Shown here: in pieces, positions 9,677-60,412 of the stretch | Layout: each line of letters opens with the position of its first letter | Numbering within the stretch: position 1 is the stretch's first letter | Source: Hormiphora californensis | Lineage: Eukaryota; Animalia; Ctenophora | Direction of reading: 5' to 3' | DNA length: 64,000 nucleotides | Assembly: GCA_020137815.1 (NCBI GenBank) | Contig: CM035350.1 | Span: 10,106,001-10,170,000, forward strand | The notes under the pieces: model-generated | The model's input: the letters and a program-made list of their open reading frames with translations, nothing else | Told to the model about the DNA's origin: nothing | Database searches by the model: none | Made by a program: the position numbers and the translations under genes

Positions 9677-11420
9677 ATGACTAGGAAACCAGTAATTAGA
9701 AAGGGGTTTGCAGGTGTTTCTGATTCTGATTTTGTTAGAAAGAAAAAGGTGTGTATGTTACCTGTCAGATTTAGTAGGGTAACTTACCCTACTAAATCTG
9801 ACATCTCCCCATCAGTCAGTTCCTATCTTCCCAGGTCTATCTACCATTACCACCAGTACAACGGTACATCTCTCTAACGACATCTCTCTAACGACATCTC
9901 TCTAACGACATCTCTCTAACGACATCTCTCTAACGACAGCTTATCTTTCAGGGATCTAGTGGAGGTGAAACGCGGTTAACCCCCGAACAGAGACATAAAC
10001 AGTTTGTGGACAAACTAAACACATGGCTCAGAGCTAATTGTGGCCAGCTAATTGATGCACTATACGAACATGACCCCAAGGGAGCAGGTAGGTCCCCTTC
10101 TCTCTCCTAGCACTGATTATCACTGTTTATAGAATTAGATCATTACATGGAGTTTCAAACTGTCAGAGCATTGGCCTGAGCCTATGAACCGTGGTCAGAC
10201 AGGTTGGAAAGGTACTTTAACTAATTTCCTCTCCCCCTCTCAATACAGGTTTGGTACCCAAGGACACCTTTAAGGAGGCTCTCCTGGTTGTGAAGGCGCC
10301 CATAACTCCTGAGGAATTACACGTTGTGCTAAAACATGTGACAAACTGCAGAGACAAGGTGGACTATCTGGCATTTGCTAAGGGTGTCAAGATACCATTT
10401 CCTGGTCTTGAGGAACTTCCAACTGAGGTATGATAACCACTTGATAGTACAACCACTACATAGTACAACCACTTCACAATACAACCACTTCATGAAATGG
10501 TTGTACTATGGAGTGGTTGTACTACGAAGCTTCATAGTACAACCAAATCTCAGTTAACTACAACATCTAGAATTAGCACATTTCTATATGTCCATTGCTC
10601 CATGCAATATTTGATCTTGAAACGTACTCTGCAGGATATAAAGCTGAATGTGAGGGATATTTCCAACGCACCCTGTACAAAGTGCAAACTCAAGTTCCCG
10701 CCAACTGAGAAAAAGGAAATCAGACCGAGGTTTGTTGAGCTCACACTACAAACCGACTTGGGACCGACTTCCAATAACTAACAGCAGTGGTTACTGGTTG
10801 TCGGGACAATGTTTTTCAGATCTTTTGTTTGCCGGAGTTAATTTGTGACCTGATCTCTAACACCCATATTATAATTGTACAGGTACATTCAACTAAATCT
10901 AGAGTTACTACAGTTTACTGACAGGGAACTTCCTTGCAACTTCACCCTGACTATATCTGATTCTATGAGCGTCTTTGGAGTTAAACAGATAATCCAGGAC
11001 AAGTTCGGGCACTCTCTAGTGGATTTAAACGTGAGTTAATCAACATCTTCTCCAGAAAACTATGTACATTCATCACTTTATTAAAGATAACAAACAACGT
11101 CATCTTTCTTTCAGATCTACCCAGAAAAGGCTGTGAATGAGACGTTACCCAACGCCTGTACTCTCTCAGAACTTGGATTCAGGGTAAGAGATTACAGAAA
11201 CATTCTTGATTTGTACCTGAAGCACAATTCTCTAATGATCCCATCTCTCTAACTTCATAATTCTCAGGGCCACACGGTAGACGATCCAGCGGAAGTGACA
11301 CTATACTACGACGTCCATCTCCACACCGATCTAGCCCAGCAGTTCTACGCCTGTCCGCTTCTTCTGACGGATCACTACTTTGCGAAACATGAGCCAAAAC
11401 AACCTGTTAACGTGACATAA
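9677..11420 (+). CDS. Uncharacterised 7-exon protein: degenerate EF-hand pair, CxxC linker and C-terminal ubiquitin-like-fold domain
   Basis: Phase-compatible GT-AG exons at about 9677-9748, 9952-10087, 10249-10427, 10635-10729, 10883-11030, 11115-11183 and 11268-11420. Translation: MTRKPVIRK...LYEHDPKGAGLVPKDTFKEAL...EELHVVL..VTNCRDKVDYLAF...CTKC...FTLTISDSMSVFGVKQIIQDKFG...TLSELGF...TLYYD...CPLLLTDHYF. Domain calls are pattern-based. Confidence 0.75.
9866..9938 (+). repeat. 14-bp intronic minisatellite (GACATCTCTCTAAC x5) containing a CTAAC branch-point motif
   Basis: Lies directly upstream of the acceptor at 9951. Confidence 0.85.
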
Positions 11421-11641
11421 CTTTCAGAGAGACTGTTTTTATCAGCTCCAGATATATTTTAGTTCACATTAATTCCACACTTTCTGGCCAGACACCAATT
11501 TTCCACGTGTGTGTCCGTGTTTCAGCACCGTGTTTCAGCCTGTGCAAAGTGTACATATATTTCCATGTTTTTATTCCACAACCCAGTAAAATCAACACAA
11601 TTTCTCTAAAACGAAAGTGAAACTAAAATCCTAAGTACAAT

Positions 11642-58400: not shown

Positions 58401-60412
58401 TTAGTCCTGTAGGGAGTTTCAATTATAATATATTAGTCATGTGGGGAGTATTAATCATGTGGGGAGTATTAGTCATGTAGGGAGTATTAGTCATGTAGGG
58501 AGTATTAGTCATGTAGGGAGTATTAGTCCTGTAGGGAGTATTAGTCCTGTAGGGAGTATTAATCATGTAGGGAGTATTAATCATGTAGGGAGTATTAGTC
58601 ATGTAGGGAGTATTAATCATGTAGGGAGTATTAATCATGTAGGGAGTATTAGTCCTGTAAGGATGGGGATATTAGAACAAACATTGCTTCGAAAATGTGA
58701 TATCATTGAATGTGATAGGGGAGGGGCTGACATAACAATGCATCTTTATGTGTAATGAATAATTAATAGCATGATAATGAACTACATTAACCGTAGTATT
58801 ATGCACTATGCTGCAGGGACATCACACACACACATCACCCACACACATGATATTGATCAAGCCTGAACAACAGGTTATTGAATCAATCGACCGTTCAACG
58901 GTACGAGGTGCCATCACTTGATTCGTGCAGTGGATCCGAAGATCACGAATTCAATTAATATGTCGTGATTACTGTTTTTTTTTTTTTTTTTTTTTTTTTT
59001 TTTTTTTTTTTATTTTATTATATATAAAAAAAAAAAAAAAAAAAAAAAAAAAAAAAAATTAATATTTATTAATTGAATAATTAATAGACCTGGAATATAC
59101 AGGGTGTCCCACTGTCTTTGCATCACCTGCGATTTTGGGTCATGACCGGGCTCCATTAAACTAACCAAAACTCATCGAAAAATTGGTCAAAATGGTTCTA
59201 ACAAAAACCAGTGCTCTAGAGAATTGTCTGGCGAACATTTTGGTTGCAAGATTGACTTTCCAAGTCTTACCAATCTTCAGATATATCGTCGTAAAGTCAA
59301 AATTACGTGTTCATGAAATCCGACCGGGGTTCACGTTTTGAAAAATTCACAAATGCAAAGTTGCTCGGATCACATTGCATCCCTCATAAGAGTTGTAGGA
59401 AATTGTCTGGCGGTCATTTTGGTACCCGGGTTTTTATCCTAGCTCAATGTTTAGAGTGTCTTATGACTGTCAGAACTGGAATTTTCCCAAAAGTGGTCTC
59501 AGGTATCGCATTGCATTTTGCCCTGTTATGAAGCTCATAGCTGCTTGACTAACATCTTAGTGCATGATAGGGTTGAGATAGACCACTTGCGTATCCTACA
59601 CATTAACAGGGGCCTTGCCAAATCGTCATAACAACCCTGTCAAGTGTCTAGATGAAATTGAGACGATATGTGCTGATTATCATGGGATTACACACGACAC
59701 CGAGCCACCTAATTAGGGGTTGTAAGCCGATACCAACTAAGACTCAGCATAGAAAAATCTTCATGTTCCTACAGTCATAACGCAACTTAAACGTAGAGCT
59801 ATGGAAAAAACCATGGTATCAAAATGAACCTTAGACGATTCCAATGAAGCTCTTATAAATTTCAAATCATTTTACCCATTTGTTGATGACACGTGATCCC
59901 CTCAAAAATGCTGGTTGAATTTCGTCTTTAGACAGTCATAAGACACTCTAAACATTGAGCTAGGATAAAAACCCGGGTACCAAAATGACCGCCAGACAAT
60001 TTCCTACAACTCTTATGAGGGATGCAATGTGATCCGAGCAACTTCGCATTTGTGAATTTTTCAAAACGTGAACCCCGGTCGGATTTCATGAACACGTAAT
60101 TTTGACTTTACGACGATATATCTGACGATTGGTAAGACTTGGAAAGTCAATCTTGCAACCAAAATGTTCGCCAGACAATTCCCTAGAACACTGGTTTTTG
60201 TTAGAACCATTTTGACCAATTTTTCGATGAGTTTTGGTTAGTTTAATAGAGCCCGGTCATGACCCAAAATCGCAGGTGATGCAAAGACAGTGGGACACCC
60301 TGTATGTGAAGACACTAATATTATGATATTATGCAACAACTTACACTTTGTCCCCCAGAGCTCTCAGTTGATACATATCCAATTTGAGGTTGTTCAGGCT
60401 AAAGTTCGCCAT
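49454..60412 (-). CDS. CLINT1: EpsinR / clathrin interactor 1 (ENTH-domain AP-1/clathrin adaptor), about 14 exons
   Basis: Exon 1 (60412-60345) ..MYQLRALGDKV. ENTH exons at 58406-58208 (TNVVMNYTDAETKLREASNDDPWGPSG...NWRRIYK), ~58032-57892 (YLVRNGSERVV..EHLFDL..GKDQGIN) and 54261-54103 (RQRVGELIQFLQDD..RDERKKARKNRDKYTG). Acidic-Phe motifs (GFADF, DPFDAF, LLDDFAGF), LDISLDNL, and a Met/Gln/Gly-rich C-terminus ending FASFGQLGNLG. Confidence 0.94.
51478..51680. repeat. Purine-rich intronic repeat (GAGAGATGGGGTA / GATATTGAGAGA variants)
   Basis: Seen directly. Confidence 0.8.
52991..53146. repeat. 19-bp minisatellite x8 (ACACAATGAACACTGTAAC) next to an epsinR donor
   Basis: The minus-strand unit GTGTGTTACAGTGTTCA resembles the donor GTGAGTTGTAGTGTTCA at ~53155. 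Confidence 0.9.
54253..57746. repeat. 56-bp satellite, ~62 copies (~3.5 kb), filling an epsinR intron
   Basis: The 56-bp period is confirmed by the same phase recurring every 840 bp (15 units). Two variants (GGAGAAG / GGATAAG). The left ~900 bp is indel-noisy. Confidence 0.97.
58431..58660. repeat. 18-bp minisatellite x~13 (GGGAGTATTAGTCMTGTA) copying the ENTH exon acceptor
   Basis: Minus-strand unit TACTCCCTACA(G/T)GACTAA versus the real junction CTCCCTACAG|GACTAA at 58406. Confidence 0.92.
59100..60302. mobile_element. Tc1/mariner-type non-autonomous element with ~372-bp TIRs and TA TSD, in epsinR intron 1
   Basis: TA|CAGGGTGTCCCAC...GTGGGACACCCTG|TA; near-perfect TIRs at 59100-59471 and 59931-60302; no transposase ORF. 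Confidence 0.93.

What the first reader, a model, noticed from the sequence alone, without database searches (positions are those of the whole stretch)
9866..58660. Intronic minisatellites are systematically seeded on splice junctions, across at least five genes
Seen: unrelated arrays each copy the neighbouring splice signal, usually with some exon bases. Acceptor copies occur at 17232-17537, ~17935-18090, ~26440-26580, ~40143-40195, ~40396-40446, 41203-41640, 46430-46946, 54253-57746 and 58431-58660. Donor copies occur at 36199-36321, ~39700-39813 and 52991-53146. Branch-point (CTAAC) copies occur at 9866-9938 and 23997-24102. Units share no sequence, so this is not one transposon family. Inference: a mechanism linked to splicing or transcription (R-loops, RNA-templated repair, nucleosome-edge breaks), or selection that tolerates only junction-preserving duplications, drives intron growth here.
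Basis: partly seen in the sequence, partly recalled or inferred. Interest (0 to 1): 0.78.

Follow-up and report, generated by a model that had tools for sequence, protein, structure and literature searches.

The report
Comb-jelly "mirage" repeats favour splice acceptors
In a comb-jelly genome, short stretches holding a gene's own splice signals are copied head-to-tail inside introns, a repeat type known from lancelets ("mirages"); here they are likely tolerated by-products of frequent local duplication, with the longest arrays skewed to intron ends, likely because the C-rich acceptor sequence expands easily.

Summary
All 14 arrays exist, in six genes of a Pleurobrachia-like ctenophore. The nine acceptor and two branch-point arrays copy the neighbouring signal; only one of three donor arrays is a clean copy. 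Short-read contigs hold several, some as length alleles.

"Systematically seeded" is too strong. In 60 modelled introns, 17 of 36 duplications touch a splice signal against 10.5 expected (p=0.009). The excess vanishes if introns were about 120 nt when the duplications arose. Low-complexity coding exons carry as many duplications per kb.

What survives the short-intron null is an acceptor bias among long arrays: 5 of 6 intronic arrays of 200 nt or more span an acceptor, none a donor (class chosen post hoc). Long arrays are rich in G/C runs even away from junctions, and this species' acceptors are C-run-rich.

Best reading: generic duplication, a selection filter, then sequence-driven expansion; not splicing-coupled mutation. 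This is the known amphioxus "mirage" type, and the scan has already reported it in other pieces of this genome. Junctions rest on homology and reading frame, with no RNA support. Interest 0.3.

The parts
9608..9675 (+).
9866..9938 (+). 5 x 14-nt branch-point array, ending 13 nt before the gene A intron 1 acceptor (exon starts 9952)
17231..17544 (-). About 10 x 31-33-nt acceptor array of PARD3 intron 2 with 4-5 exon bases; 9 of 9 upstream copies keep AG; live exon starts 17235
17935..18094 (-). About five degenerate branch point + pyrimidine tract modules before the PARD3 exon at 17934; three upstream ones end in AG, one carries 5 exon bases
23994..24103 (-). 7 x 15-nt branch-point array upstream of the inferred 5'-UTR acceptor of PARD3 (23968); length-variant joints in run X6
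26440..26590 (-). One copy, 104 nt upstream, of the NADSYN1 intron 7 acceptor plus about 25 exon bases; held by an X1 contig with 2 differences and no gap
36199..36320 (-). 3 x 40-nt array starting at the kinase intron 13 donor; one copy keeps a donor-like start
39663..39818 (-). 2 x 75-nt donor duplication, kinase intron 9, with 31-36 exon bases; the copy differs from the live exon at 4 synonymous sites
40143..40195 (-). Two-copy acceptor duplication with 6 exon bases, kinase intron 7; identical in an X1 contig
40396..40446 (-). 2 x 27-nt acceptor duplication, kinase intron 6; an X6 contig lacks the extra copy and an X5 joint suggests a longer allele
41201..41645 (-). About 14 x 31-nt mosaic acceptor array with up to 16-18 exon bases, kinase intron 3; length-variant joints in X5
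46430..46947 (+). Mosaic acceptor array (9 upstream copies, 7-26 exon bases) in intron 1 of gene G, a small Cys-rich protein with a predicted signal peptide
52991..53155 (-). 8 x 19-nt array derived from the first bases of CLINT1 intron 6; donor motif degraded in the copies
54253..57789 (-). About 62 x 56-nt acceptor array (two branch-point motifs, pyrimidine tract, AG, 9 exon bases) filling CLINT1 intron 3; indel-noisy at 54253-55150; not checked in reads
58400..58663 (-). 13 x 18-nt acceptor array with 7 exon bases, CLINT1 intron 1; 10 of 13 copies have lost AG
9676..11420 (+). Host gene A, 7 exons in one open frame, family not identified
12262..23968 (-). Host gene PARD3 (Par3 N-terminal and PDZ domains); one frame break between modelled exons 8 and 9
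25989..32396 (-). Host gene NADSYN1, 9 exons in one open frame
32942..42841 (-). Host gene: membrane-anchored tyrosine-kinase-like gene, 19 modelled exons
46221..47485 (+). Host gene G, 3 exons, one frame break in exon 2
49454..60495 (-). Host gene CLINT1 (ENTH domain), 14 exons, one frame break in exon 12

Best explanation
These arrays are copies of each gene's own intron ends, likely made by a general, frequent local duplication process and likely kept only where a complete splice site stays next to the exon. Three steps. (1) Seeding: short tandem duplications arise throughout loosely constrained genic DNA (shown), probably by unequal exchange or repair between divergent alleles (inferred). 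In introns of 80-200 nt a third to a half touch a splice signal by geometry alone (computed). (2) Filter: exon-heavy or signal-splitting duplications are purged (inferred from the low exon share). Surviving copies lie on the intron side and would be skipped because the exon-proximal site is used (inferred, no RNA). (3) Expansion: units with G/C runs reach high copy number (correlation shown), possibly through G-quadruplex-type instability on the template strand (inferred). This species' acceptors are C-run-rich, so long arrays concentrate on acceptors rather than donors.
For: Duplication density is 2.12/kb in introns, 2.55/kb in long low-complexity coding exons and ORFs, and 0 in 9,019 nt of other exons; 13 of 14 coding units are multiples of 3. 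Signal-touching arrays are 17 of 36 vs 10.5 expected, with no excess at a fixed 120-nt intron. The exon share of acceptor units is low (p=0.001). Non-coding arrays of 200 nt or more have more G/C runs than short ones (5.05 vs 0 per 100 nt, p=0.008; non-junction arrays only, 5 vs 35, p=0.048). Array-free acceptors carry 1.61 CCC runs per 60 nt against 0.53 at donors and 0.96 mid-intron. Length alleles exist. Exon parts of copies differ from the live exon mostly at silent sites (9 of 13), and at 39795 contigs of all four runs carry the copy's base in the live exon. Of 20 decoys translated, 18 give a frameshift or stop, yet NADSYN1 is intact and the CLINT1 exons at both acceptor arrays join in frame as in homologues. 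G4-dependent minisatellite instability is known in yeast (PMC2673046, abstract read).
Against: Simple microhomology is not raised at acceptors (4-mer pairs 8.2 vs 8.6 mid-intron), so seeding is not explained by it. A 1.6-fold excess near signals remains under the within-intron null, including small branch-point duplications. The 200-nt class was chosen after seeing the data and has 6-10 members. Canonical G4 motifs were matched only once in the 56-mer array, in its noisy part, and not in the 17231 or 58400 arrays. Two further non-synonymous changes in short exon parts were left out of the 9-of-13 count (9 of 15 with them). AT-rich intergenic DNA has about five-fold fewer duplications (0.44/kb), which a transcription-linked process would also predict. 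No RNA supports the junctions.
Confidence: 0.6

Rival explanations
1. Pure geometry plus selection: no real positional bias; any duplication in a tiny ancestral intron touches a signal, and the acceptor skew of long arrays is small-sample luck.
For: Touch counts equal expectation at 120 nt and fall below it at 90 nt (20 vs 20.5 and 25.7). Spanning or abutting arrays are at chance overall (7 vs 7.6). Hand count of 9 acceptors vs 3 donors is not significant (p=0.15).
Against: 5 of 6 long intronic arrays reach AG even against an 80-nt null (expected 1.7, p=0.007; 5 of 8 vs 2.3, p=0.04 with the nested introns) and none reaches GT. Collapsed introns have a median of 165 nt.
Confidence: 0.2
2. Splicing- or transcription-coupled mutagenesis (R-loops, breaks at exon edges, or repair templated by a lariat-exon intermediate) seeds duplications at junctions.
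For: Residual 1.6-1.8-fold excess near acceptors. Genic DNA has about five times the duplication density of AT-rich intergenic DNA. At 40396-40446 the array edge falls on the branch-point motif.
Against: Donors are not enriched (6 vs 4.3). Disordered coding exons are as duplicated as introns. The RNA strand at acceptors is C-rich. Unit edges vary from 11 to about 77 nt upstream of AG, some well beyond the branch point and one short of it, unlike a reverse-transcriptase stop at the branch.
Confidence: 0.13
3. The arrays are functional decoys or recursive-splicing sites that tune splicing.
For: Most acceptor copies keep AG and a branch-point motif. Two decoys would add in-frame, stop-free inserts (27 nt in the kinase, 42 nt in gene G).
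Against: The 27-nt copy is absent from one allele. Units are unrelated. 10 of 13 copies in CLINT1 intron 1 lost AG, and 18 of 20 decoys tested break the frame or hit a stop.
Confidence: 0.04
4. Long-read assembly artefacts.
For: The assembly has indel noise (three frame breaks; 54253-55150).
Against: Short-read contigs span the copies at 26440, 39700 and 40143 and cover the 41203 array; a second sample shows length alleles. X1 and X4 may be the assembly's own source, so X5 and X6 are the independent support.
Confidence: 0.03

Closest known systems
Amphioxus 'mirage' minisatellites (Adh3, globins BflGb6/BflGb9, troponin C, PGBD5); PMC3087553 and PMC3902484, passages read
   Same: Tandem copies spanning an exon-intron boundary at either end, unrelated units of 10-160 nt, many but not all keeping AG/GT, copy number differing between haplotypes, mechanism described as unclear.
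   Different: Different phylum; dense here (18 of 60 introns carry a signal-touching array); up to about 62 copies; long arrays skewed to acceptors; accurate splicing reported in amphioxus but untested here.
Human F7 intron 7 37-bp VNTR; PMC1557585, abstract read
   Same: First unit spans an exon-intron boundary; later copies are intact, normally silent pseudo-sites.
   Different: Donor-side, single locus, choice explained by 5'-to-3' scanning; here most decoys are upstream acceptors, which a first-come scan would be expected to use.
G-quadruplex-dependent minisatellite instability (human CEB1 in yeast pif1 mutants); PMC2673046, abstract read
   Same: G-run-rich units are the unstable ones; long arrays here are G/C-run rich.
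   Different: Only a sequence correlation here; G4 formation not shown, and several arrays lack canonical motifs.

Membership tests
Mirage minisatellites | Tandem or near-tandem repeat whose unit spans an exon-intron boundary | tested here: met
   Nine acceptor arrays and the 39663 donor copy include the junction; junctions are modelled from homology and frame.
Mirage minisatellites | Locus-specific units of about 10-160 nt | tested here: met
   Units of 14-104 nt with different consensus sequences.
Mirage minisatellites | Many but not all copies keep the AG/GT signal | tested here: met
   AG kept in 9/9, 8/9, 9/9, 55/55 and 3/13 copies.
Mirage minisatellites | Copy-number variation between alleles | tested here: met
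   40396 copy absent in an X6 contig; length joints at the 41203 array (X5) and the 23997 array (X6).
Mirage minisatellites | Regular splicing unaffected | tested here: inconclusive
   The one RNA-like run gave no spliced joints; only indirect support from reading frames.
Mirage minisatellites | Somatic instability (reported for Adh3) | not testable with these tools
   Needs single-molecule data from one animal.
Transposon or introner-type dispersed family | Shared element sequence at several loci | tested here: not met
   An intron's own 16-nt acceptor word recurs in 6 of 60 introns at 13/16 identity; other introns' words in 0.2 on average.
G4-driven unstable minisatellite | Instability depends on G4-forming runs | tested here: inconclusive
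   Long arrays have more G/C runs and higher G4Hunter-type scores; folding and dependence not tested.

The most novel reading that the evidence does not exclude
The C-rich 3' splice site of this ctenophore is itself a genome-wide minisatellite expansion hotspot (G-runs on the template strand), producing up to about 60 intact upstream acceptors that the spliceosome ignores. That would link splice-signal composition to intron growth and imply strict cross-exon definition in a short-intron, early-branching animal, testable on natural length alleles.
Probability: 0.25. Interest if true: 0.6.

Novelty: new member of a known kind. Interest (0 to 1): 0.3.

Why it matters
Mirage repeats were described from single lancelet loci with an unclear origin. 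Here they are dense and polymorphic enough to quantify. The window suggests that sequence-driven expansion, not splicing, explains which junction copies become long. Alleles with and without decoy acceptors would be a ready natural experiment on 3' splice-site choice. As it stands this is a known phenomenon in another lineage, already noted by this scan in the same genome.

Tried and rejected
No whole genome is held, so no genome-wide test. No RNA holder was listed; run X7 covered 6 of 30 bins and showed no spliced joints, which is no evidence either way. Microhomology excess at acceptors: not found. Donor enrichment: not found. Correlation of array length with GC skew: none (rho 0.02). One transposon family: rejected. 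A lariat reverse-transcription origin: unit edges do not share a branch-point boundary. The NADSYN1 search listed no named ctenophore among its best 120. Pfam gave no family for the gene A exon, the gene G exon, kinase exon 3 or the two nested ORFs. Paper searches: searches returned nothing; two searches returned only F7 and the amphioxus globins; one search returned five papers, and the passages shown from the Hormiphora genome paper (PMC8527503, 12 of 13 places) do not mention junction repeats; one search returned one human review (listing only). None showed a ctenophore report or a genome-wide enrichment test. Subscription journals are not searched and supplements were not read. The 5.9-kb PARD3 intron 1 was dropped from the main test because it holds nested ORFs; three of its pieces were added as a sensitivity run. 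Three score-12 hits (28860, 31555, 38194) may be chance, so the score-20 counts are preferred.
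Full report
Organism and genes. The ENTH exon at 58193-58408 matches Mnemiopsis leidyi CLINT1 at 90% and a EukProt 'sb/' model at 95%. A PARD3 exon matches another 'sb/' model at 96%. The window is a ctenophore; that 'sb/' ids are Pleurobrachia bachei models is recalled, not shown. I modelled six genes by coordinates, GT/AG ends and frame continuity: gene A, PARD3, NADSYN1, a tyrosine-kinase-like gene, a small Cys-rich gene G and CLINT1. NADSYN1 and CLINT1 exons agree with homologues, and Pfam confirms Par3, PDZ and kinase domains. 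Three frame breaks are probably assembly indels. The 'sb/' PARD3 model skips my exons 11-12. No RNA supports the junctions. This gave 61 introns (median 191 nt); 60 were used.

Observation. All 14 arrays are present. Nine copy the gene's own acceptor with 0-26 exon bases, mostly keeping AG. Two copy the branch-point motif; a YTRAY motif lies 12-40 nt before the 3' end in 40 of 60 introns. Only one donor array is a clean copy. An intron's own acceptor word recurs inside it in 6 of 60 introns, against 0.2 for other introns' words, so the copies are local and not one dispersed family. Short-read contigs span the copies at 26440, 39700 and 40143. A second sample lacks the 27-nt copy at 40396 in one contig and shows length joints at the 41203 and 23997 arrays.

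Enrichment. I detected local duplications without reference to junctions, using TRF plus diagonal self-matches (332 hits vs 5 in shuffled sequence). I collapsed each array to one unit, trimmed microsatellites and TE-like pieces, and placed the unit at random within its intron. At score 20 or more, 17 of 36 arrays lie within 20 nt of the acceptor or 8 nt of the donor, against 10.5 expected (p=0.009). The acceptor zone has 11 vs 6.1 (p=0.026) and the donor zone 6 vs 4.3 (p=0.26). The first run gave 20 of 39 vs 12.3, and 7 vs 7.6 for arrays reaching a junction. At score 30 or more the excess is borderline (11 of 23 vs 7.3, p=0.06). With all introns fixed at 120 nt it vanishes (20 vs 20.5).

One signal survives. 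Of six intronic arrays of 200 nt or more, five reach the acceptor and none the donor (expected 1.0, p=0.0003; 1.7 at a fixed 80 nt, p=0.007). Adding the nested introns gives 5 of 8 (p=0.04 at 80 nt). Two more long arrays lie outside modelled introns, so 5 of 10 overall. This class was chosen post hoc.

Duplication is general. Density is 2.12/kb in introns, 2.55/kb in long low-complexity coding exons and ORFs, 0 in other exons and 0.44/kb in AT-rich intergenic DNA. Coding units are multiples of three in 13 of 14 cases; some are low-complexity protein repeats. Arrays add 28% of intron length, half from one array; 27 of 60 introns have an array and 18 have one near a signal.

Filter. The nine acceptor units are mostly intronic (mean exon share 0.23, p=0.001; values measured by hand). 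This fits selection: an exon-heavy unit would leave the exon-proximal copy without a branch point. The CLINT1 intron 1 unit has only 11 intron bases, but its exon part supplies a branch-point-like motif, and 10 of 13 copies have lost AG. Of 20 decoys translated, 18 shift the frame or hit a stop. The exon-proximal site is therefore likely the one used, which would point to exon definition; this is inferred.

Expansion. Array-free acceptors have more CCC runs than donors, mid-introns or exons, but not more microhomology. Long non-coding arrays have more G/C runs than short ones, also among non-junction arrays (p=0.008 and 0.048). This parallels G4-dependent CEB1 instability (PMC2673046, abstract). 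Canonical G4 motifs are missing from some long arrays, so the link is a correlation. The G-runs lie on the template strand and the RNA is C-rich, which argues against R-loop seeding (recalled rule).

Origin of copies. Following earlier notes, I compared exon-derived parts of 16 nt or more with the live exons. Nine of 13 distinct changes are synonymous (p=0.001 vs 25%, 0.03 vs 40%; the NADSYN1 copy scored by eye), or 9 of 15 with two non-synonymous changes in short parts that I left out. At 39795 the live exon in contigs of all four runs carries the copy's base. This fits copies made from, or since recombined with, other working alleles in a highly polymorphic species; the related Hormiphora has about 3.2% heterozygosity (PMC8527503, passages). 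Silent change in the live exon after duplication would also contribute.

Comparison. Tandem copies of exon-intron boundaries are the amphioxus 'mirages' (PMC3087553, PMC3902484, passages), with a human donor-side parallel in F7 intron 7 (PMC1557585, abstract). Four of six mirage features were met here, one was inconclusive and one untestable. My searches found no ctenophore report or enrichment test in the held library. The scan has reported the pattern in other pieces of this genome and in other genomes; those notes are leads, not support.

Verdict. Real, a new member of a known kind; 'systematically seeded' is not supported, and the acceptor skew of long arrays deserves a genome-wide test. 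Interest 0.3.

Noticed in passing
window 22676-22999, 43140-43259, 48443-48668 (single site at 32842): Three otherwise unrelated minisatellites share a 10-nt core resembling one half of the RFX X-box (28 matches vs 0.57 expected; X-box motif seen in a passage of PMC4168999). One lies about 300 nt upstream of the kinase start codon and the single site about 450 nt upstream of NADSYN1. They could be amplified ciliary-gene promoter motifs.
   Followed up: partly
window 18311-19402, 20279-21664, 23483-23660 (minus strand): Two long ORFs (363 and about 460 aa, no Pfam hit) and a possible first exon lie inside PARD3 intron 1 on the same strand: a parallel nested gene or alternative PARD3 isoform. 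The ORFs hold six in-frame tandem duplications.
   Followed up: partly
window 46221-47485 (+): Small three-exon Cys-rich protein with a predicted signal peptide and no Pfam hit for exon 2; one frame break near 46970, likely an assembly error.
   Followed up: partly
window 59094-60304: About 1.2-kb element with long inverted ends inside CLINT1 intron 1, beside poly-T/poly-A runs; MITE-like. Similar inverted-end or high-depth elements lie at 24670-25990, 40462-40565 (absent in some contigs) and 42078-42283.
   Followed up: no
   Followed up: yes
window 5455-6760 (-): Broken LINE-type reverse-transcriptase fragments (recognised by eye, not searched).
   Followed up: no
window 7787-7850: Short interstitial TTAGGG-like repeat.
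   Followed up: no
window 35395-36034 and 35052-35181 (-): The long kinase exon 14 runs to a stop at 35389 or uses a weak internal donor, and the next exon has the same phase as exon 14: possible alternative C-termini.
   Followed up: no
window 63410-64000 (+): Start of a gene with PG-rich repeats of the sperm-tail STPG kind (label recalled, not searched).
   Followed up: no
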